Notes: generated from the letters alone by a model not told the origin. DNA of 64,000 nucleotides from Candidatus Peribacteria bacterium (GCA_943350395.1 CALRAD010000001.1:133812-197811); one strand, 5' to 3'; counted from the first letter of the stretch, positions 48,326-59,156 are shown. Program-made: numbers and translations.

Positions 48326-48838
48326 ATGAGAAGACATTTCACGGCGACTGCGTTCATTATCGATTCGAAAAAACGCACGCTGCTTCTTTGGCACAAGCGC
48401 CTGCAACGCTGGATGCCCCCAGGCGGTCATCTCGACGAGAACGAAACTCCTGAGGAGGCCGCGAAGCGCGAGTGCAAAGAAGAAACGAATCTCGACGTCG
48501 ACATTATCGGAGAGTCTCAAGTTGATTTATTTTCAGGAAATCCCACAGAAGGACGAATGCTGATCAAACCGATTGGCATGCTCCTAGAAGTTATCCCCGC
48601 CTGTCCCGATCGCAACGAACCTGCACATCAACATATGGACTTTCTCTTCATCGCAAAACCGCTGGATGAATCTCAAGTCGTTACGATCGCAGAACACGAG
48701 AGTGAGAAGATGCGCTGGTTCACGAGAGCAGAAGTCGAAATGCTCGATGAAGCGACAGAGATATTTTCGAATGTGAAAGCATATATTCTAAACGCAATTG
48801 TTCCCCTCTCCCAAGCCTCAGCGAGGGAGAGGGGTTAG
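48326..48838 (+). CDS. NUDIX hydrolase
   Basis: Nudix box GGHLDENETPEEAAKRECKEETNL. The last ~12 codons are encoded by a family C-type hairpin repeat (48803-48834). Confidence 0.88.
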   Translation: MRRHFTATAFIIDSKKRTLLLWHKRLQRWMPPGGHLDENETPEEAAKRECKEETNLDVDIIGESQVDLFSGNPTEGRMLIKPIGMLLEVIPACPDRNEPAHQHMDFLFIAKPLDESQVVTIAEHESEKMRWFTRAEVEMLDEATEIFSNVKAYILNAIVPLSQASARERG

Positions 48839-48894: not shown

Positions 48895-51642
48895 ATGCAG
48901 TGGCAGGAATTCCGATCTCAGATCCGGCATCTCTCCGCACGGGACACAACGAGGGTGGAGCATGCATTCCAGCTAGGCAAGAAAATGCACGAGGGACAAA
49001 AGAGGCGTTCGGGTGAACCCTACTTCAGTCATCCCATTGCCGTCGCGCACATGCTGAGCGATCTCGGTGCCGACGCCGACACGATCATCGCGGCATTGCT
49101 GCACGACACCGTTGAGGACACGCCTCTCACACTCAAAGAAATAGAACACGCCTTCAGTCCGGACATCGCAGCACTCATCGACGGAGTGACCAAACTCAAC
49201 TCGGATGACGTTTCCATGAGTCCGAAACTCGACGAACAGATCGAGACGCTCCGCAAAATCTTCACGCTGATGGAACAGGATGTGCGCATCATGGTCATCA
49301 AACTCGTCGACCGACTCCATAACATGCAGACGGTGGAATTTTTGCCTGCTGAGAAGCAGCAACTGCTCGCGAAAGAAACGCTCGAGATCTACGTGAAGAT
49401 CGCAGACAAACTCTGCATGCAGGATCTCAGAGATGAGCTCGAAAGCCTCTGTCTCTCCGTACTCGAACCGGTGCCGCTTCGGAAACTGGTGGACGTTCGA
49501 ACCCAAAACGAACAGTTGGGAACGGTGCTCATCCAAGAAATGCGCTCGACCATACGACATCACGACAAGCTGCTGACATCGCGTACGGACATGCATTTCG
49601 AAAATAAAACATGGGGGCAACTTCGCGATCAAATGACGAAAGGATCGGCGGTCGCAACGGGTGTAGCATCGCTCACCGTCGCATTCGTGTGCGAGGACAT
49701 CGACAGTTGTTATCAGGTGCTTGGTGTTCTGCATCAACTCTGGAAACGTGAGGTTTTGTCTTTTCAGGACTTCATCAATGCGCCGCAACTCAACGGATAC
49801 CGAGGATTGCATACGACGATCATCGCGCAGGACGGCACGCGCGTTCGATGCAAAATACGCACTCGCATGATGCAGACATATGCTCGAAAAGGGATATCGA
49901 CGGTTTGCTTCCAGGGTACATCCGAATCGAGTGAGATTCTCCCGTGGACAAAGCGAATCACCTCGCTCACATCCGACACCGAAGGCAGCAGCAATGACTT
50001 CTGGGAAACGCTCAAGAACGACATCCTCGGAGAGTCGATCACCATTCACGGACCTGACGACACCACTGTACAACTCCCAACCGGTTCAACTGCACTCGAC
50101 GGAGCATTCTACCTCTTCCATGAAAACACACTGAAGACGCTGTCGATCAAAATGAACGGAGCCGAAGTACCGTTCGCCCAACCGATCACCAACGCGGCAT
50201 CGATCGACATCACCGTTTCGGATCGCATCACCTGCACGAGAGACTGGCTTAGACAGGTTCAGACCGGATTTGCAGCCGCTAAAATCCGTTCCACGCTCGC
50301 GGAACAAACGAGAGATCATAAACTTACCATTGGTCGAGAAATGCTGCAGATGACCTTCACCGAACGCAAGAAGGGCTTCATCGAAGAATTTGAAGAGACG
50401 ACCATGCAAACAAAAATTCAAAGTCTCGGTTACGCTTCCCTCGATGACATCTTCATTGCCATCGCGGACGGACGATTGGAACCCGCGGATATTTATTCCG
50501 CACTGTTCGAAAAGCAAGTGCAACGCCGTCAAAAAACACCGACGTTTATCATCCGATACGAGATCAACATGGATGATGTCGACATGATGGACCGCATGAA
50601 TCTCCTGCACAGAAAACACGGACCGATGCTCTCTGACATCCGTTATCAACGAGCGGCGAGCGGCAATGCATCGGTATCTCTTTCGGCACACATCGCTCCG
50701 CAGGATCTCGAAAAATTCCAACAAGAACTCTTGCTTGCGGGAGCAAAACGATTGACCTCGGTACGGCAGAGCAGAACCATTGCGATTCTCATTGTCACGA
50801 TCATCACCCTCTGGGGACTCGATCCCGTCTTTGCACACTTGCTCCTAGAGCACACGCCGATTACTCCGGTCGATCTCACGCTCATCCGCTTCGCCACATT
50901 CTTCATCGCATCGACAGCCACATTCGTTCTGCACCGGTCATTCTCGCAAATAAGAGCGAAAGGAATCGGACTCTGGAAGCCGTCTCTCATTCTGTCGGGA
51001 GCCTCCCTGTTTGCCACGGCAATTCTGTCCTATGTCGCGCTTCAGCACCTCTCGGCCGGACAATACATTCTCTTCATCATCGCAGGTTTGATCCTGATGG
51101 AAACCGTGCGCAGAGACACCGCAGATCGATCTTTTCTGCGTTCGCTCCTCTCTCTCCTCACTCTCTCCGGTGCTATCACCATCATGCTTGCGACGAAAGA
51201 AAGTCCCAATGTTGGCATCCTCGCTGCGATCGGCAGCGCTATCGGTTTCGCTCTCTACTCCCAGTGCAGTAGGCACTACCTAGAAACCGAAGCGCGAATC
51301 CATGCTCGCTATCCGGCGTTCGTACTCTGGCTTTCGATCATCGCGCTGCCCTTCTGCATCGCACTTCTGCCGCTTTCCTCGGACATACAGACTCTCGGAT
51401 GGAGCGTGATTCTCCAGAGCGTTCTCTTCGCCTTCGTCTTTACCTTCCTGCCGTACGTCCTCTACTTCGAATGCATGCGAAAAACGAACATCGATATTTT
51501 AAACCGCCTCCTGCCCTTCGTAAGCGTCGTTGCGATCGTGGGAGATCTCACGCTCAACCGCTCTGCTATTCCCCTGCCTGCAGCTGCCTGCGTCGGACTC
51601 TTCCTGCTGGTGTACAGAACAAAAGTCGCGACGCACGATTAG
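48895..51642 (+). CDS. long RelA/SpoT homologue (HD hydrolase, degenerate synthetase, TGS, ACT) fused to a C-terminal EamA/DMT-like membrane domain
   Basis: HD motif HPIAVAHML..LLHDTVEDT. Synthetase remnant NGYRGLHTTI, but ..VRCKIRT in place of E-x-Q-I-R-T. TGS ITIHGPDDTTVQLPTGSTALDGAF. About 9-10 TM helices from about residue 626 onward. Confidence 0.8.
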   Translation: MQWQEFRSQIRHLSARDTTRVEHAFQLGKKMHEGQKRRSGEPYFSHPIAVAHMLSDLGADADTIIAALLHDTVEDTPLTLKEIEHAFSPDIAALIDGVTKLNSDDVSMSPKLDEQIETLRKIFTLMEQDVRIMVIKLVDRLHNMQTVEFLPAEKQQLLAKETLEIYVKIADKLCMQDLRDELESLCLSVLEPVPLRKLVDVRTQNEQLGTVLIQEMRSTIRHHDKLLTSRTDMHFENKTWGQLRDQMTKGSAVATGVASLTVAFVCEDIDSCYQVLGVLHQLWKREVLSFQDFINAPQLNGYRGLHTTIIAQDGTRVRCKIRTRMMQTYARKGISTVCFQGTSESSEILPWTKRITSLTSDTEGSSNDFWETLKNDILGESITIHGPDDTTVQLPTGSTALDGAFYLFHENTLKTLSIKMNGAEVPFAQPITNAASIDITVSDRITCTRDWLRQVQTGFAAAKIRSTLAEQTRDHKLTIGREMLQMTFTERKKGFIEEFEETTMQTKIQSLGYASLDDIFIAIADGRLEPADIYSALFEKQVQRRQKTPTFIIRYEINMDDVDMMDRMNLLHRKHGPMLSDIRYQRAASGNASVSLSAHIAPQDLEKFQQELLLAGAKRLTSVRQSRTIAILIVTIITLWGLDPVFAHLLLEHTPITPVDLTLIRFATFFIASTATFVLHRSFSQIRAKGIGLWKPSLILSGASLFATAILSYVALQHLSAGQYILFIIAGLILMETVRRDTADRSFLRSLLSLLTLSGAITIMLATKESPNVGILAAIGSAIGFALYSQCSRHYLETEARIHARYPAFVLWLSIIALPFCIALLPLSSDIQTLGWSVILQSVLFAFVFTFLPYVLYFECMRKTNIDILNRLLPFVSVVAIVGDLTLNRSAIPLPAAACVGLFLLVYRTKVATHD

Positions 51643-52670
51643 ACGGTGAAGAGCGAGTTCAGAAAACGCACGTCTTTGCGAGGCTGGATCCCCGCGAGTT
51701 TCTGGGCAGTGATGTACCAGTCGACGAGCAGCGAGACCGGAGTGCCATCGGGCAAAGTGGCAGATACCTTTCGATTCGTCTGACGACCGAGCATGCAACC
51801 GGGTAAATTTGCACGAGTATGCAGGATGACGCTAGCAACATTCAGAAGACCGGGATCGAACTCTCTGCCTATCGGTTCACCCTGCTCGTTCTCGAGGCCC
51901 TTCACGCTCGCAATAGCGGCAATCGCATACTTCAGCTGATGCCTGCGAGTCGCATTCAAGAGTGAGATCTGATGCAGTGCGACGTCTTCCGTCGCCGATG
52001 CAAAGCCCATTTTCGGGGTCGTTGCACAGATGTCGGCAATTAATACGGCACAAGCGGGATCCGACAGAATCTCTTCAATGATCTTCTCGCCCTCGAGAAC
52101 GACGTCTTCATCGGCTATCGGCAACGGAAGATCACCAAGATCGATTTCTCGATCCGGCGGCACCCAAAAATGACCGTCTCCTCCGACAATCCTCTCGCCA
52201 GGCTGCCAATTCGTCTCGCTATTCACCGGTCTACCGCTGGTTTCCGCCATCACCCAACCACCTTCTTCCGACCAACGCGAATCAAGCCGATTCTCAATCC
52301 TCTGCTCGCCGACTCCCTTATAAGACATGAGAAATCCTCCTTGTCCTTGAATATCTTTGGTCAATTGGGCGATCTGATTGTCTGTACCGAAACGTATCGT
52401 TTCGATCACCCTCGCAGAGACATTCAGCAATTCATGTCTGGCATCGAAGTCGGAACCGCGTTTCGCATCGGCCACAAATTGCACTTCGATTTCATCCGCC
52501 GGAAAATGCACGCGCACGGCAGATCCAATTCGCTGCATCAGTCTCCTCTGGATTTTCTCTCTTTCACTGTCTTGTCGAAGCTGATCGGGCAAGGTTGGAT
52601 CTCGTACCGCGTCGAGAACCATCTGAGTAACTGATGATTTAGAGTGCTCAAGCATAAGGAGGAGAGGCAT
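51639..52670 (-). CDS. hypothetical protein (343 aa)
   Basis: A long ORF whose 3' end overlaps the convergent RSH gene by 4 nt. No motif recognised. Confidence 0.5.
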   Translation of the reverse strand: MPLLLMLEHSKSSVTQMVLDAVRDPTLPDQLRQDSEREKIQRRLMQRIGSAVRVHFPADEIEVQFVADAKRGSDFDARHELLNVSARVIETIRFGTDNQIAQLTKDIQGQGGFLMSYKGVGEQRIENRLDSRWSEEGGWVMAETSGRPVNSETNWQPGERIVGGDGHFWVPPDREIDLGDLPLPIADEDVVLEGEKIIEEILSDPACAVLIADICATTPKMGFASATEDVALHQISLLNATRRHQLKYAIAAIASVKGLENEQGEPIGREFDPGLLNVASVILHTRANLPGCMLGRQTNRKVSATLPDGTPVSLLVDWYITAQKLAGIQPRKDVRFLNSLFTV

Positions 52671-54670: not shown

Positions 54671-54788
54671 GAAGAAAAGAAGATGTACTGAAGAACTACA
54701 GTAAACTGAAGAAAGGATAATGTCAATTTTCTATGACATAGGAGTTTCATGCGTTCTCAGTGCGGATATTTTGCTCTACACTCGGAGC

Positions 54789-57700
54789 ATGTTCGATCCC
54801 GTCGACCCAAAGCAGAGATTCCCAGACCTTGAGCTTGGCATTCTCAAATACTGGAGCGAAGAAGATACGTTCAAGCGTTCGATCGGCAGGCGCGCGGGCG
54901 GGGAGGAATTCAGCTTCTACGACGGACCACCGTTTGCAACAGGGCTCCCCCACTATGGACACATCCTTGCGGGGACGATCAAAGACGTTATTCCTCGATA
55001 CCAGACAATGCGCGGCAAGCACGTGCGTCGTCGCTTCGGCTGGGACTGTCACGGACTTCCGGTCGAGAATGAAATCGAGAAAGAACATCATCTGAAGAGC
55101 AAAAAAGACATCGAAGCGCTCGGCGTTTCGAAGTTTAATGATCTCTGCCGAGGAGCCGTACAGCGATACACGAAAGAATGGAAGAACACCGTCGAGCGTA
55201 TGGGTCGCTGGGTCGATATGGATCACGACTACAGAACGATGGACCCGGATTACATGGAGAGCATCTGGTGGGTCTTTAAGCAGCTTCATTCACAGGAACT
55301 GATCTACGAAGGACACAAGCCGATGCACGTGTGCCCGCGGTGCCAGACGCCTTTGTCGAATTTCGAGGTCACACAGGGATACAAAGACATTCAGGACTAT
55401 TCGGTCACGGCGATGTTTGAGCTGGATGCCCCCACCCCAACCCCTCCCCCGAGGGGGGAGGGGCAACGTAAAAATGGCTCGGAAAAAATTTTCGTGCTCG
55501 CATGGACAACAACCGGATGGACACTCCCCGGGAATCTCTTTCTCGCCGTGCATCCCGAGACGACCTATGTCACGGTGAAGTGTGAAGGCAAGAAATTCAT
55601 CGTTGCAAAAGATCTGACAGAGAAAGTGTTTGCAAAAAAAGAATACAAGATAGAGAAAGAGCAAATGGGGAAAGACCTCGTCGGCCTTACGTACAAGCCA
55701 CTATTCCCGTACTACGCAGAGCAGTTTCAGGGCAAAGCCTTTAGGATTGTTGCAGGCGATTTCGTGACGACGACCGACGGTACCGGCATCGTGCATATCG
55801 CAACGGGCTACGGTGACGACGACTTTCAGGTCGGACAGCGCGAGAAGACCGGTGTGCTGCAACATGTCGACATCGACGGAACGTTCAAGAAAGAGGTGAC
55901 AGATTTCGCGGGAAAAGATGCAAAGCCGAAAGATGATCATCAGAGTGGGGATAAGATGATTGCAAAGTGGCTGCAAAAACATGGCAAACTTTTCGCCTCT
56001 GAAAGCTTCAGTCACAGCTACCCGCACTGCTGGCGTTGCGACTCGCCTCTCCTCAACTACGCAACGAGCTCGTGGTTCGTGGCCGTCGAGAAGATCAAAG
56101 AGAGGATGCTCGAAGCGAACGCGAAGACCGAGTGGGTGCCAAGCCACATTCGAGACGGTCGCTTCGGAAAATGGCTCGAGGGTGCGCGTGACTGGGCGAT
56201 CTCCCGCAGTCGTTACTGGGGCACGCCACTCCCAATCTGGCGAAACAGCATCACGGGGCAGATCGAAGTCATCGGTTCCAGAGACGAGCTTGCGGCAAAA
56301 GCACCAAATCGGTTCACGAAGATCATTGTCGCAAGACACGCGGAGAGCGAAGGCAACGTCGCGAAGTTCTACCAAGGAAAACTCCCAGGAACGGCGCTCA
56401 CCGAGACTGGACAGAAGCAAGCCAAAACGCTCGCAAAATCAGTCGAGAGCAAGAAAAACGAAAGTCTACCGCTTAAAACCATCTACTGCTCCCCTCTCCA
56501 GAGAACGCAGCAAACGGCTCGTGCGATCGCGGAAGAAACGGGAGCGAACATCGTGATCGATGAACGTCTCCGCGAAGTCGACTTCGGCGAGTACGAGGGC
56601 AAGCACATCGATTTCGACGATCTCACCTTTATCAAGGAACGTCGAGCGCACAAGATGAAGAAAGGTCAGATCGAGAGCGTTTTTCATTTTCAGGGCATGG
56701 AAACATGGGAACATACGCAACTTCGAATGTCTGCATTTCTGGATGACGTGCTGAAGAAACACCGTGGCGAGACGATCACCGTCGTCACGCACGCCGACCT
56801 CGTGATGAATGCGATTCATCACTTCACGGGGATCGATCCGCATAAGATCGTCCATCAGCCGTATCCCGACGTCGCCTCGCACAGAGTCTTCTACTGGGAT
56901 CATGAGAGAGGTGCGCAGATGGATCTGCACAAGGAGACAGTGGATGAGATTACGTGGGGAAATTCCAAAACTGAAATTCCAAATTCCAAAAATGCTGTCG
57001 AGCTCACGCTCGTGCGGCATGGAGAGACCGATTTGAACAAACAGAAGATCGTGCAGGGATCGGAGATCAATGCGCAGCTGAATAAAGTCGGAAGAGCGCA
57101 GGCGAAGAAAGCTGGTGAATCGCTCAAAGGAAAAATGTTTGACGTGATCATCTCTTCGCACCTCGACCGTGCATCGGAAACGGCACGCATCATTGCCAAA
57201 GAAATCGGTCTCGAATACGCAGGGGGATTCGAAATCTTCCGCGAACGGGATCTCGGTGACTGGACAGGCAGACCCATCGAAGAGATTCTTGCACAGGAAA
57301 AAGCTCCAAAAAAACAAGTAGGTGCCGTCATGCTGAAAGGAACACCGAAAGGCGGTGAATCATTCAATCAATTCACCACGCGCGTGCAAAAAGCGCACGA
57401 TTGGCTCCTGAAAGAATATGCGGGAAAGAAAGTGCTTCTCGTCGCACACGGCGGATTCAATCGAGCATCCTTGATGATTGCGCAGGATATTCCGTATGAA
57501 ACCATCGCAACAATCCATCCAAAGAACGGTCAAATTGAAGAAATACAACTTTCACCCCAGATGCGAAGGATCGACGAAGTCCTCGACTGCTGGTTCGAGT
57601 CGGGCTCGATGCCCTATGCGCAAGAACATTTCCCGTTTGATGTCCAAAACGGTAAGCCCGATTCCCCGCGCGGCTTTCCCGCTGATTTCATCGCCGAAGG

Positions 57701-59156
57701 CTTGGACCAGACCCGCGGATGGTTCTACACACTCACAGTCCTCTCGTCCGCACTCTTCCAGTGTCCTGCATTCCGTCACTGCATCGTGAATGGCATCGTA
57801 CTTGCGGAAGACGGCAAGAAAATGAGCAAGCGTCTCAAGAACTACCCAGAACCGACCGTTGTCGCAGAGCGTCATGGAGCAGACGCCGTGCGCTTCGCAC
57901 TGATGAGTTCGCCTGCAGTCCGCGGCGAAGACCTCCGGTTCTCCGAGAAGCTGATCGAAGAAACCGTACGAGCGGTCCTGCTCCCTCTCTGGAATGCATA
58001 CCGCCTCTTCGTGACGTATGCGAATGCCGCAGACTGGAAACCATCACTCGATTTTTCTTTGAAGAACGGACAGTCCAAACATCTCCTGGATCGATGGATC
58101 GTTCTCAAAACTCAGGCACTTGTGAACAATATGACAACCGAACTCGACAGTTACGACTTGTCGGCAACGTGCGCGCACCTCACAGACTCGATCGATGATC
58201 TCACCAACTGGTACGTGCGCTTAAGTCGAAGACGTCTTTCGGGGAAAGAGGAAGAGCAGAAAGACCTGCCAGCCGAAGCCTCCTCAGAGGCGCAGGCTGG
58301 AGCGCTCGACACGCTCTACCGTGTGCTCCTCGCCAACGCACAACTCCTCGCTCCGTTCTGTCCATTCGTCTCCGAAGCGATCTATCTGAATCTCGTGAGC
58401 GAAGATCACGGGTCGATCCACTTCACCGATTGGCCGCAGTCCGTGAAAATCAGCGATGACGATCAACATATCCTCACGCAGATGGATAACACCCGAAGCA
58501 TTGTCACTCTCGGCCTCAAACTCCGAAGCGACGCGAAGATCCAAGTACGTACGCCACTCTCGTCGGTGACCGTTGCGCTCCCGACGAAAGACAGCGAACA
58601 GATCGTGAAAGATCTCATCAAAGAAGAGCTCAATGTAAAGCAGGTCCTTTCAGTGATCGACGCGAGTTCGATTGCCTCTCGCTTCCTGCAGATCGATGCA
58701 CGCAAAGCCGGTCCGCGTTTCGGCTCGAAAGTGCAGGAGCTGATCCGCGCAGGGAAAGAAGGAAAATTTGAGGAGAAAGACGGCGTCTTCTCCGTCATGG
58801 GAGAAGCACTACTCCCCGGAGAAGCGACGATCGTCTACAAATCCAAAGAAGGAAAGAATGTCGCGGCCGACCGCGGCATTGTCGTCAGTCTCGATACGAT
58901 ACTCACGGAAGCGTTCACGCTCGAAGGTCAAGCCAGAGAGCTCGTGCATGCGATACAAATCCTCCGGAAAGATGCAGGACTCGAATTCACCGACACGATC
59001 AAACTGACGGTGACCGGAGCTGACAACATCATGACCGTTCATCAGGATCTGATCCTGCAGGAAACGAAAGCGACGCTTGCTCCGAACAAAGGCAAAAAAG
59101 AAACAGTCGAGATCGATGGAATAAAAGTGCAAATAACATTCGAACGAAGTAATTGA
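54789..59156 (+). CDS. ileS: isoleucine--tRNA ligase (type 2) with two inserted histidine-phosphatase domains
   Basis: PPFATGLPHYGHIL (HIGH), WAISRSRYWGTPLPIW, EVLDCWFESGSMPYA, GKKMSKRLKNYP (KMSKS). The inserts carry ARHAESEGN and VRHGETDLN motifs. The start was set at MFDPVDPKQRFP. Confidence 0.93.
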   Translation: MFDPVDPKQRFPDLELGILKYWSEEDTFKRSIGRRAGGEEFSFYDGPPFATGLPHYGHILAGTIKDVIPRYQTMRGKHVRRRFGWDCHGLPVENEIEKEHHLKSKKDIEALGVSKFNDLCRGAVQRYTKEWKNTVERMGRWVDMDHDYRTMDPDYMESIWWVFKQLHSQELIYEGHKPMHVCPRCQTPLSNFEVTQGYKDIQDYSVTAMFELDAPTPTPPPRGEGQRKNGSEKIFVLAWTTTGWTLPGNLFLAVHPETTYVTVKCEGKKFIVAKDLTEKVFAKKEYKIEKEQMGKDLVGLTYKPLFPYYAEQFQGKAFRIVAGDFVTTTDGTGIVHIATGYGDDDFQVGQREKTGVLQHVDIDGTFKKEVTDFAGKDAKPKDDHQSGDKMIAKWLQKHGKLFASESFSHSYPHCWRCDSPLLNYATSSWFVAVEKIKERMLEANAKTEWVPSHIRDGRFGKWLEGARDWAISRSRYWGTPLPIWRNSITGQIEVIGSRDELAAKAPNRFTKIIVARHAESEGNVAKFYQGKLPGTALTETGQKQAKTLAKSVESKKNESLPLKTIYCSPLQRTQQTARAIAEETGANIVIDERLREVDFGEYEGKHIDFDDLTFIKERRAHKMKKGQIESVFHFQGMETWEHTQLRMSAFLDDVLKKHRGETITVVTHADLVMNAIHHFTGIDPHKIVHQPYPDVASHRVFYWDHERGAQMDLHKETVDEITWGNSKTEIPNSKNAVELTLVRHGETDLNKQKIVQGSEINAQLNKVGRAQAKKAGESLKGKMFDVIISSHLDRASETARIIAKEIGLEYAGGFEIFRERDLGDWTGRPIEEILAQEKAPKKQVGAVMLKGTPKGGESFNQFTTRVQKAHDWLLKEYAGKKVLLVAHGGFNRASLMIAQDIPYETIATIHPKNGQIEEIQLSPQMRRIDEVLDCWFESGSMPYAQEHFPFDVQNGKPDSPRGFPADFIAEGLDQTRGWFYTLTVLSSALFQCPAFRHCIVNGIVLAEDGKKMSKRLKNYPEPTVVAERHGADAVRFALMSSPAVRGEDLRFSEKLIEETVRAVLLPLWNAYRLFVTYANAADWKPSLDFSLKNGQSKHLLDRWIVLKTQALVNNMTTELDSYDLSATCAHLTDSIDDLTNWYVRLSRRRLSGKEEEQKDLPAEASSEAQAGALDTLYRVLLANAQLLAPFCPFVSEAIYLNLVSEDHGSIHFTDWPQSVKISDDDQHILTQMDNTRSIVTLGLKLRSDAKIQVRTPLSSVTVALPTKDSEQIVKDLIKEELNVKQVLSVIDASSIASRFLQIDARKAGPRFGSKVQELIRAGKEGKFEEKDGVFSVMGEALLPGEATIVYKSKEGKNVAADRGIVVSLDTILTEAFTLEGQARELVHAIQILRKDAGLEFTDTIKLTVTGADNIMTVHQDLILQETKATLAPNKGKKETVEIDGIKVQITFERSN

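What the first reader, a model, noticed from the sequence alone, without database searches (positions are those of the whole stretch)
48895..51642. RelA/SpoT homologue with a degenerate synthetase domain fused to an EamA/DMT-type membrane domain
The 915-aa ORF has an intact HD hydrolase motif, a TGS domain and an ACT-like region. It then continues for about 290 aa with about 9-10 hydrophobic helices resembling two EamA repeats (from about nt 50771). Long RSH enzymes are normally soluble and ribosome-associated. In the synthetase region only the NGYRGLHT block is recognisable. The basic R-x-K..S..K block, the D-x-x-G-x-R block, the catalytic Glu of E-x-Q-I-R-T (here VRCKIRT) and the AHW-YK block are not recognisable. 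This suggests a hydrolase-only, membrane-tethered enzyme, perhaps coupled to a transported metabolite. A NUDIX hydrolase gene lies directly upstream on the same strand.
Basis: partly seen in the sequence, partly recalled or inferred. Interest (0 to 1): 0.6.

Follow-up and report, generated by a model that had tools for sequence, protein, structure and literature searches.

The report
Membrane-embedded alarmone hydrolase fused to transporter
A tiny-genome Peribacteria (candidate phyla radiation) bacterium makes its only SpoT-like enzyme for destroying the starvation signal (p)ppGpp as a single protein with a complete 10-helix DMT-type transporter. I found no description of this conserved arrangement, which would place control of the stringent response at the membrane rather than on the ribosome.

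Summary
Window 48895..51642 (+) is one uninterrupted 915-aa ORF. Its domain order is HD hydrolase, pseudo-synthetase, Core, TGS, helical domain, ACT/RRM-like domain and a 10-helix DMT/EamA domain.

- **Catalytic residues:** all eight HD residues checked are invariant in 54 homologues. The synthetase Asp, Arg, Glu and Gln are replaced. The zinc-finger (ribosome-intersubunit) domain is deleted.
- **Membrane part:** a model of it alone (pLDDT 92.5, pTM 0.91) matches only DMT-superfamily structures. Lys+Arg counts of 17 inside and 2 outside fit an N-in/C-in topology.
- **Not an artefact:** more than 100 full-length homologues exist in Peribacteria and Peregrinibacteria. The membrane domain lies in roughly 911-1047-aa frames in 103 of 200 genomes of the same family. 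Its profile finds essentially only fusion proteins among 1.84 billion representatives.
- **Genome context:** this 1.25-Mb genome has three more RSH genes. Two have a dead hydrolase and an intact synthetase. One is a cNMP-binding/synthetase/hydrolase fusion.
- **Class context:** all 19 DMT-fused RSHs examined keep the hydrolase and lack the synthetase. All 16 soluble Rel enzymes keep both. The fused proteins form one lineage (SH-aLRT 99; 94 on HD alone).

Most likely this is a membrane-integral, hydrolase-only SpoT analogue. Coupling of hydrolysis to transport is inferred, not shown. I found no published description.

The parts
48326..48838 (+). NUDIX hydrolase gene (170 aa), 56 nt upstream on the same strand. 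Probable operon partner.
   Evidence: Pfam NUDIX 6.6e-18. The Nudix box GHLDENETPEEAAKRECKEETN is intact. The best PDB match is 3f6a, of unknown function. A NUDIX gene is the immediate upstream neighbour in 6 relatives at 42-60% identity. It was not found upstream in G182, G105 or the DMT-fused genes of other families.
48895..51642 (+). Whole RSH-DMT fusion gene (915 aa plus stop).
   Evidence: A single open frame. Full-length homologues at 41-73% identity. AF2 mean pLDDT 87.6.
48895..49464 (+). HD (p)ppGpp hydrolase domain, residues 1-190, with all catalytic residues present.
   Evidence: HD_4 2.4e-40. R37, H46, H70, D71, E74, D75, D139 and N143 are invariant in 54 of 54. Foldseek NTD against 7oiw and 1vj7 gives TM 0.86.
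49567..49914 (+). Pseudo-synthetase domain, residues 225-340. The fold and the G-loop (N300 G301 Y302 H306 T307 T308) are kept. The catalytic Asp, Arg, Glu and Gln are replaced by A258, A263, R318 and K320.
   Evidence: Alignment to B. subtilis Rel. Column counts. Mean pairwise identity 56%.
49915..50031 (+). Core linker helices between pseudo-SYN and TGS, residues 341-379.
   Evidence: AF2 helices 345-377. Length is 39-41 aa in 53 of 54 members. W351, S366, F369, L373, I377 and L378 are invariant.
50032..50229 (+). TGS-like beta-grasp domain, residues 380-445.
   Evidence: Aligns to Rel TGS. Pfam TGS is found in 8 of 54 relatives. The tRNA-CCA-sensing His (B. subtilis H420, here H409) is not conserved: G21, Q10, H7, R6.
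50230..50514 (+). Alpha-helical (AH) domain, residues 446-540. No zinc-finger/RIS domain follows it.
   Evidence: RelA_AH_RIS profile positions 4-93 of 185 only. The AH-to-ACT span is 30 aa, against 108 aa in soluble Rel of the class.
50536..50772 (+). ACT/RRM-like domain, residues 548-626. Its last strand runs directly into TM1.
   Evidence: AF2 b-a-b-b-a-b at 550-625, with TM1 starting at 627. The L612-W640 spacing is 26-31 aa in 54 of 54. This is the least conserved domain, at 20% pairwise identity.
50773..51639 (+). Complete 10-TM DMT/EamA-type domain, residues 627-915, with N-in/C-in topology.
   Evidence: 10 hydropathy peaks. K+R counts are 17 inside and 2 outside. EamA is found in 30 of 54 members, best 1.3e-8. 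TIGR00950 matches 2 of 20 members at 6e-10. The TM-only AF2 model has pLDDT 92.5 and pTM 0.91. The top 36 Foldseek PDB hits are all DMT proteins: TPT 5y78, SLC35B1 9i20, YddG 5i20 and others.

Best explanation
This gene encodes a membrane-integral, hydrolase-only long RelA/SpoT homologue of type [Hs]. It is a functional analogue of SpoT.

**Shown by sequence and model**
- The N-terminal HD domain is catalytically complete.
- The synthetase domain is retained as a conserved non-catalytic pseudo-domain.
- The zinc-finger domain, which in Rel/RelA reaches into the ribosome, is deleted.
- The ACT/RRM-like domain is joined without a linker to TM1 of a complete 10-helix DMT transporter domain, with the enzyme on the cytoplasmic side.

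**Inferred**
- The protein degrades (p)ppGpp to GDP/GTP plus pyrophosphate at the inner face of the membrane.
- It is the main alarmone hydrolase of the cell.
- Synthesis is supplied by two paralogous long RSHs that have a dead hydrolase and an intact synthetase, and by a cNMP-binding/SAS/HD protein. This would be a RelA/SpoT-like division of labour that arose inside the Peregrinibacteria.
- Hydrolase output is set from the membrane rather than from the ribosome. In A. baumannii SpoT, contacts between RRM and pseudo-SYNTH tune hydrolysis. By analogy, the state of the DMT domain (ligand-bound, or cycling between conformations) would be passed through the rigid ACT-TM1 junction to the pseudo-SYN/HD pair.
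- The upstream NUDIX enzyme may assist nucleotide clearance in the subclade where it is linked.
For: **One gene, conserved**
- More than 120 full-length homologues of about 915 aa at 41-73% identity, named Peribacteria or Peregrinibacteria.
- The TM domain lies in frames of mostly about 911-1047 aa in 103 of 200 genomes and 54 of 84 genera of the family.
- The TM profile finds almost only fusion proteins or their C-terminal fragments among 1.84e9 representatives. Two apparent free-standing or split cases proved to be a 942-bp contig fragment and a scaffold gap.

**HD intact, SYN dead**
-, and class-wide: 19 of 19 DMT-fused proteins keep 8 of 8 HD residues and lack the synthetase catalytic residues. 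16 of 16 soluble Rel enzymes keep both.

**One lineage**
- The fused proteins fall on one side of a branch with SH-aLRT 99 on the NTD and 94 on HD alone.

**ZFD deleted**
-.

**DMT fold and topology**
-.

**Tight junction**
-.

**Other synthetases in the genome**
-.

**Precedent**
- A monofunctional SpoT exists whose pseudo-SYNTH is regulatory and whose RRM contacts set hydrolysis: PMC9974481.

**Ecology**
- Peribacteria make nucleotides but few amino acids, which they must acquire: PMC4736985.
Against: - There is no biochemical, transcript or read-level evidence.
- The EamA hit in this protein is below Pfam's cut-off, and the N-half is invisible to sequence methods.
- pTM for the full-length model is only 0.59, so domain packing against the membrane part is not established.
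- The ACT-like adaptor is the least conserved part, at 20% identity. That is not what one expects of a finely tuned allosteric relay.
- The short-IDR trend described for SpoT[Hs] is not clearly reproduced. Core length is 49 aa against 52 aa, and the alpha6-alpha7 loop is not shorter.
- About half of the sampled family genomes gave no TM-domain hit. This could be divergence or true absence.
- NUDIX linkage is limited to a subclade.
Confidence: 0.7

Rival explanations
1. Anchor only. The DMT domain no longer binds or transports anything. It merely tethers a constitutive or otherwise-regulated (p)ppGpp hydrolase to the membrane.
For: - The TM domain evolves fast: 32% mean pairwise identity, falling to 22-30% within the family.
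- No curated transporter family matches this protein.
- Relatives exist with only 3-5 TM helices and no DMT (L024, L025, L038). Membrane attachment alone is therefore a recurrent solution in this class.
Against: - A full 10-helix DMT fold is maintained. A single helix would be enough for anchoring.
- Polar and aromatic positions inside the helices are invariant or nearly so: W640, D643, R665, Y713, Y724, Y788, R805, Y854.
- The domain has been kept across at least four GTDB families.
Confidence: 0.3
2. Reverse coupling. The RSH part is the regulatory module of a transporter. Binding or turnover of (p)ppGpp or a guanine nucleotide would gate solute flux, making this an alarmone-gated permease.
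For: - The pseudo-SYN keeps the guanine-stacking G-loop (N300, G301, Y302, H306 invariant). It replaces the acidic Mg2+ ligands with invariant basic residues (R316, R318, K320, R322).
- SpoT_Ab differs: it lost the G-loop Tyr and does not bind GDP.
Against: - The basic signature is confined to this GTDB family. DMT-fused relatives in other families read L/K/G, K/V/Q and so on at those positions.
- The fully conserved HD catalytic set argues that turnover, not just binding, is under selection.
Confidence: 0.15
3. Nucleotide-handling unit. The DMT domain moves a nucleotide-type substrate, such as an alarmone, GDP/GTP or pyrophosphate-bearing compounds. Together with the NUDIX enzyme it would form an uptake, efflux or clearance pathway.
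For: - The best structural matches include nucleotide or phosphate carriers: SLC35B1 ATP/ADP, TPT, Vrg4 GDP-mannose and CST.
- Arginines R665 and R805 are invariant.
- The NUDIX gene is adjacent.
Against: - Foldseek scores across DMT members are nearly equal, and YddG, an amino-acid exporter, ranks alike. They carry no substrate information.
- The only curated sequence match is the carboxylate/amino acid/amine family TIGR00950.
- NUDIX linkage is not general.
- Peribacteria synthesise their own nucleotides.
Confidence: 0.1
4. The enzyme still synthesises an alarmone or related product using a non-canonical active site.
For: The pseudo-SYN is highly conserved and has an intact acceptor G-loop.
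Against: - Both metal/ATP ligands (Asp to Ala/Ser/Thr, Glu to Arg) and the ATP-phosphate Arg/Lys residues are gone in 54 of 54.
- Equivalent substitutions abolish synthesis in SpoT_Ab.
Confidence: 0.03
5. Assembly or annotation artefact joining two genes.
For: One relative (L015) appears split into 563-aa and 410-aa genes.
Against: - That split is an N-run scaffold gap containing a foreign piece.
- More than 100 independent assemblies carry the continuous frame with constant junction spacing.
Confidence: 0.01

Closest known systems
Hydrolase-only SpoT[Hs] of Moraxellaceae (A. baumannii SpoT, PDB 7QPR; Tamman et al., PMC9974481)
   Same: - Both are long RSHs with an active HD and a retained, non-catalytic, regulatory pseudo-SYNTH.
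- Both are partnered with a separate synthetase-only long RSH in the same genome.
- 7QPR is the top Foldseek hit (2.8e-27).
- The substitution logic is the same: the catalytic Asp and Gln/Glu are replaced.
   Different: - SpoT_Ab is soluble, keeps ZFD and RRM, has lost the G-loop Tyr and does not bind GDP.
- This protein lacks ZFD, keeps the G-loop, has an invariant basic RVRCKIRT strand, and is fused to a 10-TM DMT domain.
- It arose within the Peregrinibacteria, not from proteobacterial SpoT. The class-level tree supports this, but no proteobacterial outgroup was included.
Bifunctional Rel (B. subtilis Rel 6YXA, S. equisimilis RelSeq 1VJ7, S. aureus Rel 7OIW)
   Same: - The best sequence match is 6yxa (3.2e-77 over residues 12-541).
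- The NTD fold has TM 0.86.
- The domain order HD-SYN-TGS-AH is the same.
   Different: - Rel has intact synthetase motifs, ZFD and RRM, and is switched by starved ribosomes and deacylated tRNA.
- Here the synthetase residues and ZFD are missing, the tRNA-sensing His is not conserved in the family, and the C-terminus is a membrane domain.
DMT superfamily 10-TMS carriers (EamA/PF00892; TIGR00950 carboxylate/amino acid/amine transporters; structures YddG 5I20, TPT 5Y78, SLC35B1 9I20)
   Same: - 10 helices with N-in/C-in topology.
- A WG-containing TM1 motif (LWGLDP).
- Fold TM-scores of 0.62-0.73.
- EamA hits in 30 of 54 members.
   Different: - The sequence is very divergent. No PDB sequence hit was found even with a profile.
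- It is never found free-standing.
- The substrate is unknown.
14-helix (4+10 TM) RSH-DMT proteins of other Peregrinibacteria/CPR genomes (L049-L052; earlier scan notes e1-4514908 and e1-3068449)
   Same: - They belong to the same RSH lineage in the NTD tree.
- They have the same intact HD, dead SYN and missing ZFD.
   Different: - They are about 1100-1150 aa, with four extra helices before the DMT domain.
- Their DMT domain shows only generic similarity to this one (10-12 bits).
- This genome has only the 915-aa, 10-helix form.
Transporter-sensor fusions ('transceptors'), such as the SLC5-domain sensor kinases CbrA and CrbS (recalled from memory; the earlier scan note e1-2721460 also names them as its closest known)
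   Same: A complete transporter fold is covalently joined to a cytoplasmic signalling enzyme.
   Different: The output there is a histidine kinase, not an alarmone hydrolase, and the transporter superfamily is different. This is a resemblance of principle only and was not tested here.

Membership tests
Long RelA/SpoT homologue (RSH) | N-terminal HD hydrolase domain of the RSH type | tested here: met
   HD_4 2.4e-40. TIGR00691 spoT_relA 6e-118, but below its cut-off. Catalytic residues are invariant.
Long RelA/SpoT homologue (RSH) | SYNTH domain fold following HD | tested here: met
   RelA_SpoT 9e-14, partial. NTD TM-score 0.86 to 7oiw and 1vj7.
Long RelA/SpoT homologue (RSH) | Synthetase catalytic residues (Asp and Arg of DxxxxR, Glu and Gln of ExQIRT, basic RxKxxxSxxxK) | tested here: not met
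   The positions read A258, A263, R318, K320, E236 and Q246. They are replaced in 54 of 54 members.
Long RelA/SpoT homologue (RSH) | C-terminal regulatory region TGS-AH-ZFD-RRM/ACT | tested here: inconclusive
   A TGS-like beta-grasp and AH are present, and an ACT/RRM-like fold appears in the model only. ZFD is absent.
Monofunctional hydrolase class SpoT[Hs] (functional class, not orthology) | Intact HD plus inactive pseudo-SYNTH, with a separate synthetase elsewhere in the genome | tested here: met
   and for the two [hS] paralogues. Enzyme activity itself is not testable with these tools.
Monofunctional hydrolase class SpoT[Hs] (functional class, not orthology) | Orthology to proteobacterial SpoT | not tested
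   The trees held only sequences of this class. The fused lineage separates from the class's soluble Rel, so an independent origin is likely but was not tested against SpoT.
DMT superfamily / EamA | 10 TM helices arranged as 5+5 with N-in/C-in topology | tested here: met
DMT superfamily / EamA | Sequence match to EamA (PF00892) above the curated threshold | tested here: inconclusive
   This protein scores 24.1 bits against a 28.2 cut-off, and one half only. 30 of 54 relatives match, best 1.3e-8. The two halves are not alike by hhalign.
DMT superfamily / EamA | DMT fold | tested here: met
   The top 36 Foldseek PDB hits are all DMT proteins (E 2e-5 to 4e-3, TM up to 0.73). The next hits have E > 0.08.
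DMT superfamily / EamA | Transport of a substrate | not testable with these tools
   Needs proteoliposome or whole-cell assays.
NUDIX hydrolase (upstream gene) | Nudix box GX5EX7REUXEEXGU | tested here: met
   GHLDENETPEEAAKRECKEETN, with the final G replaced by N. Pfam NUDIX 6.6e-18.

The most novel reading that the evidence does not exclude
The protein is a stringent-response 'transceptor'. The DMT domain binds or transports an acquired nutrient, most plausibly an amino acid or related metabolite. Its conformational cycle is passed through the linker-less ACT-TM1 junction to the pseudo-synthetase/HD pair. (p)ppGpp hydrolysis would then read nutrient flux across the membrane directly. This would replace ribosome and tRNA sensing, since ZFD is deleted and the tRNA-sensing His is not conserved, in an amino-acid-dependent CPR bacterium.
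Probability: 0.3. Interest if true: 0.85.

Novelty: new variant of a known kind. Interest (0 to 1): 0.62.

Why it matters
Long RSH enzymes are the textbook case of soluble, ribosome- or partner-regulated stringent factors. This lineage shows three departures from that picture.

- The hydrolase-specialised member is built into the membrane as part of a transporter fold and has lost its ribosome-intersubunit domain. That suggests a different input logic for alarmone breakdown.
- It would be a second, independent RelA/SpoT-type split into synthetase-only and hydrolase-only enzymes, this time in the candidate phyla radiation.
- A 1.25-Mb genome spends four genes on RSH proteins. Alarmone signalling is therefore important in these reduced, nutrient-dependent cells.

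The idea that nutrient transport can be wired directly to (p)ppGpp turnover becomes experimentally testable with one clonable gene.

Tried and rejected
- **Free-standing relatives of the DMT domain.** The word-index search gave 2 hits, and full HMMER on 1.84e9 representatives gave only fusions or fragments. The 295-aa hit is a 942-bp contig fragment. The 563+410-aa 'split' is a scaffold N-gap with a foreign EF-G_C-like piece.
- **Sequence-level PDB match for the TM profile.** None found.
- **NCBIfam on the TM domain.** Nothing for this protein. Only TIGR00950 matched, in 2 of 20 relatives.
- **Internal 5+5 repeat by hhalign.** No signal, probability 0.3%.
- **'Shorter IDRs' of SpoT[Hs].** Not clearly reproduced.
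- **Restriction to one GTDB family.** I first concluded this and then rejected it. The class scan and fetched loci show the same 10-TM form in other families.
- **Mapping of the catalytic Glu.** I first mapped it to C319. The HMMER alignment puts it at R318.
- **Promoter and terminator scans.** These gave only chance-level matches.
- **Cys clustering.** I could not measure whether C266, C319 and C338 cluster, or whether E236 and R318 pair.
- **Literature.** Searches and readings of the RSH classification papers found no mention of a membrane or DMT-fused RSH. The only related item is an old, later-revised proposal of TM segments in plant RSH1.
Full report
**Observation**

Window 48895..51642 (+) is one uninterrupted 915-aa ORF. 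Pfam finds the following:
- HD_4 at 24-173, E 2.4e-40.
- A partial RelA_SpoT match at 264-335, covering profile positions 31-103 of 113.
- The helical half of RelA_AH_RIS at 455-548.
- A sub-threshold EamA match at 773-882, 24.1 bits against a 28.2 cut-off.

Hydropathy shows ten hydrophobic peaks, all after residue 628. A NUDIX gene with an intact Nudix box ends 56 nt upstream on the same strand. An AlphaFold2 model built on 54 homologues has mean pLDDT 87.6 and pTM 0.59. It resolves these domains:

| Domain | Residues |
|---|---|
| HD | 1-190 |
| Pseudo-SYN | about 225-340 |
| Helical Core | 345-377 |
| TGS-like beta-grasp | 381-441 |
| Helical domain (AH) | 449-538 |
| Low-confidence linker | 541-546 |
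| ACT/RRM-like b-a-b-b-a-b domain | 550-625 |
| Ten TM helices | 627-908 |

The last strand of the ACT-like domain runs straight into TM1.

**Catalytic state**

I aligned the protein to B. subtilis Rel (6YXA, E 3.2e-77) and counted residues over 54 family members.

All HD residues checked are invariant: R37, H46, H70, D71, E74, D75, D139 and N143.

In the synthetase domain:
- The ATP-phosphate Arg is E236 (49 of 54) and the later Lys is Q246.
- The catalytic Asp is A258 in this protein, and Ser, Ala, Thr or Pro across the family.
- The following Arg is Ala or Val.
- The Mg2+-binding Glu is R318 and the Gln is K320, both 54 of 54.
- AHWxYK is lost.
- The G-loop N300-G301-Y302...H306-T307-T308 is invariant.

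The domain is not decaying. Its mean pairwise identity is 56%, second only to HD at 64%. The other domains score TGS 45%, AH 39%, TM 32% and ACT 20%. In A. baumannii SpoT, substitutions at the catalytic Asp and Gln abolish synthesis and the pseudo-SYNTH acts as a regulatory domain. That enzyme also lost the G-loop Tyr and does not bind GDP (PMC9974481), so the retained G-loop here is a real difference.

**Ribosome-sensing parts**

- Only the helical half of the AH_RIS profile matches.
- The span from AH to ACT is 30 aa in the fused proteins, against 108 aa in soluble Rel of the same class. The zinc-finger/RIS domain is therefore deleted.
- The TGS histidine aligned with B. subtilis Rel H420 is His in this protein but not conserved in the family: G21, Q10, H7, R6. 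Its role in sensing the tRNA 3'-CCA end is from my own knowledge.

**Membrane domain**

- A model of residues 621-915 alone has pLDDT 92.5 and pTM 0.91.
- Its top 36 Foldseek PDB hits are all DMT-superfamily carriers: TPT 5y78, SLC35B1 9i20, YddG 5i20, Vrg4, CST, LicB and PfCRT. TM-scores reach 0.73. The list then drops to E > 0.08. The full-length model gave the same DMT hits.
- Lys+Arg counts are 17 on the predicted cytoplasmic side and 2 outside. This fits N-in/C-in topology with the enzyme in the cytoplasm.
- EamA is detected in 30 of 54 relatives, best 1.3e-8. TIGR00950 (carboxylate/amino acid/amine transporter) matches 2 of 20.
- The two halves show no mutual sequence similarity, and no PDB sequence matches the profile.
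- Conserved intramembrane or interface residues include LWGLDP 639-644, R665, Y713, Y724, Y788, R805-Y806 and P853-Y854.

**Reality of the fusion**

- The best 120 homologues listed are nearly all full-length (about 890-965 aa, 41-73% identity, mostly 94-100% coverage). They come from Peribacteria and Peregrinibacteria assemblies.
- In the window's GTDB family the TM domain is found in 103 of 200 genomes and 54 of 84 genera. Almost all hits lie in frames of about 911-1047 aa.
- A profile of the TM domain, scored against 1.84 billion representatives, finds 130 proteins at E <= 1e-30. The 150 best are all fusion-length proteins, with the domain at about 625-915, or C-terminal fragments.
- The two suspicious cases are a 942-bp contig fragment and a scaffold N-gap.
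- The spacing between ACT helix 2 (L612) and TM1 (W640) is 26-31 aa in 54 of 54.
- Read mapping was not possible.

**Genome and lineage context**

The assembly is 1.25 Mb and 97.7% complete, and it holds four RSH genes:
- This gene.
- A 654-aa long RSH with a dead HD (QH..KF and CDGIRH) and an intact synthetase, TGS, AH and ZFD.
- A 476-aa long RSH, also with a dead HD and an intact SYN.
- An 1122-aa protein with two cNMP-binding domains, a SAS-like synthetase and a C-terminal HD.

This gene is therefore the only long RSH with a complete hydrolase site.

Across the GTDB class, which includes genomes with in-frame TGA, I fetched relatives and tabulated their catalytic residues:
- All 16 soluble Rel enzymes of about 700 aa keep both sites.
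- All 19 DMT-fused proteins keep 8 of 8 HD residues and lack the synthetase catalytic residues.

The fused proteins come in two forms. A 10-TM form occurs in this family and as L046-L048 in other families. The DMT domains of L046-L048 match the profile at 1e-21 to 1e-34 with Z = 1.8e9. A 4+10-TM form of about 1100-1150 aa (L049-L052) has a DMT domain that is only generically similar. Forms with 3-5 TM helices and no DMT also exist, and one of them (L024) is still bifunctional by its residues.

In maximum-likelihood trees the 19 DMT-fused proteins fall on one side of a branch. Support is SH-aLRT 99 on HD plus SYN and 94 on HD alone. This is consistent with a single origin of the fused, hydrolase-only lineage inside the Peregrinibacteria. 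The trees are unrooted and contain no proteobacterial sequences.

**Neighbourhood**

A NUDIX gene is the immediate upstream neighbour in six relatives at 42-60% identity, although the genes between uvrA and NUDIX vary. A strict Nudix-box search found none within 1.5 kb upstream in G182, G105 or the 10-TM genes of other families. The link therefore holds only within a subclade.

**Mechanism**

Shown: the architecture, the residue states, the fold, the topology, the conservation and the paralogue complement.

Inferred:
- The protein hydrolyses (p)ppGpp at the membrane and is the cell's SpoT analogue.
- Its regulation no longer comes from the ribosome.
- Because RRM-to-pseudo-SYNTH contacts and compaction set hydrolase activity in SpoT_Ab, the rigid ACT-TM1 junction could transmit the state of the DMT domain to the catalytic pair.

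Peribacteria synthesise nucleotides but few amino acids (PMC4736985). This makes an acquired amino acid or metabolite a plausible signal. The substrate is unknown, and structural neighbours do not discriminate between candidates.

**Comparison and novelty**

The closest known enzyme is the hydrolase-only SpoT of Moraxellaceae. This protein differs from it in four ways: the DMT fusion, the loss of ZFD, the retained G-loop with a basic RVRCKIRT strand, and a likely independent origin.

Neither RSH classification paper mentions membrane-embedded or transporter-fused RSHs. Targeted full-text searches found none either. Public annotations call these proteins 'HD domain-containing protein' or 'RelA/SpoT family synthetase'. 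Earlier notes of this scan describe the 14-helix relatives and one similar 10-TM case in other genomes. I treated them as leads and re-derived the 14-helix form independently.

**Verdict**

This is a real, conserved, apparently undescribed variant of a known enzyme family. Its biochemical identity is well supported. Its regulatory logic is still hypothetical.

Noticed in passing
window 54720-59156 (+): A 1478-aa isoleucyl-tRNA-synthetase-like protein (tRNA-synt_1, Anticodon_1, DUF5915). Two His_Phos_1 (histidine phosphatase) stretches (E 1.2e-82) are inserted between the catalytic halves. The same architecture appears in relatives.
   Followed up: partly
own genome G000:C19, L053 703-4071 (-): An 1122-aa protein with two cNMP-binding domains, a SAS-like RelA_SpoT synthetase and a C-terminal HD domain whose HD..ED and DRLxN motifs are intact. 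This may be a cyclic-nucleotide-controlled alarmone synthetase/hydrolase.
   Followed up: partly
own genome G000:C2, L001 757-2721 (+) and L002 796-2226 (+): Two long RSH paralogues (654 aa and 476 aa) with dead hydrolase motifs and intact synthetase motifs. The genome therefore holds four RSH genes in 1.25 Mb.
   Followed up: yes
L052 (G182:C1:46400-50700) and L018: In a genome of the same family, a 1100-aa 4+10-TM RSH-DMT gene lies head to head with the 10-TM-type gene.
   Followed up: partly
L024, L025, L038 (other families of the class): RSH proteins of 758-797 aa carry only 3-5 C-terminal TM helices and no DMT domain. L024 keeps both hydrolase and synthetase residues, which suggests a membrane-anchored bifunctional Rel.
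   Followed up: partly
window 48804-48835: A 10-bp-stem inverted repeat (CCCCTCTCCC ... GGGAGAGGGG) overlaps the 3' end of the NUDIX gene, just before the RSH gene. It has no T-tract, and its function is unknown.
   Followed up: no
window 51639-52670 (-): A 343-aa orphan gene with no Pfam or NCBIfam match is convergent with the RSH gene and overlaps its stop codon by 4 nt. A gene of 341-368 aa sits in the same position in most relatives.
   Followed up: no
L015 2205-5233 (GCA_964508225.1): The fusion gene is apparently split, but the cause is an N-run scaffold gap flanked by an EF-G_C/LepA-like foreign segment. This is a likely local misassembly in that public genome.
   Followed up: yes
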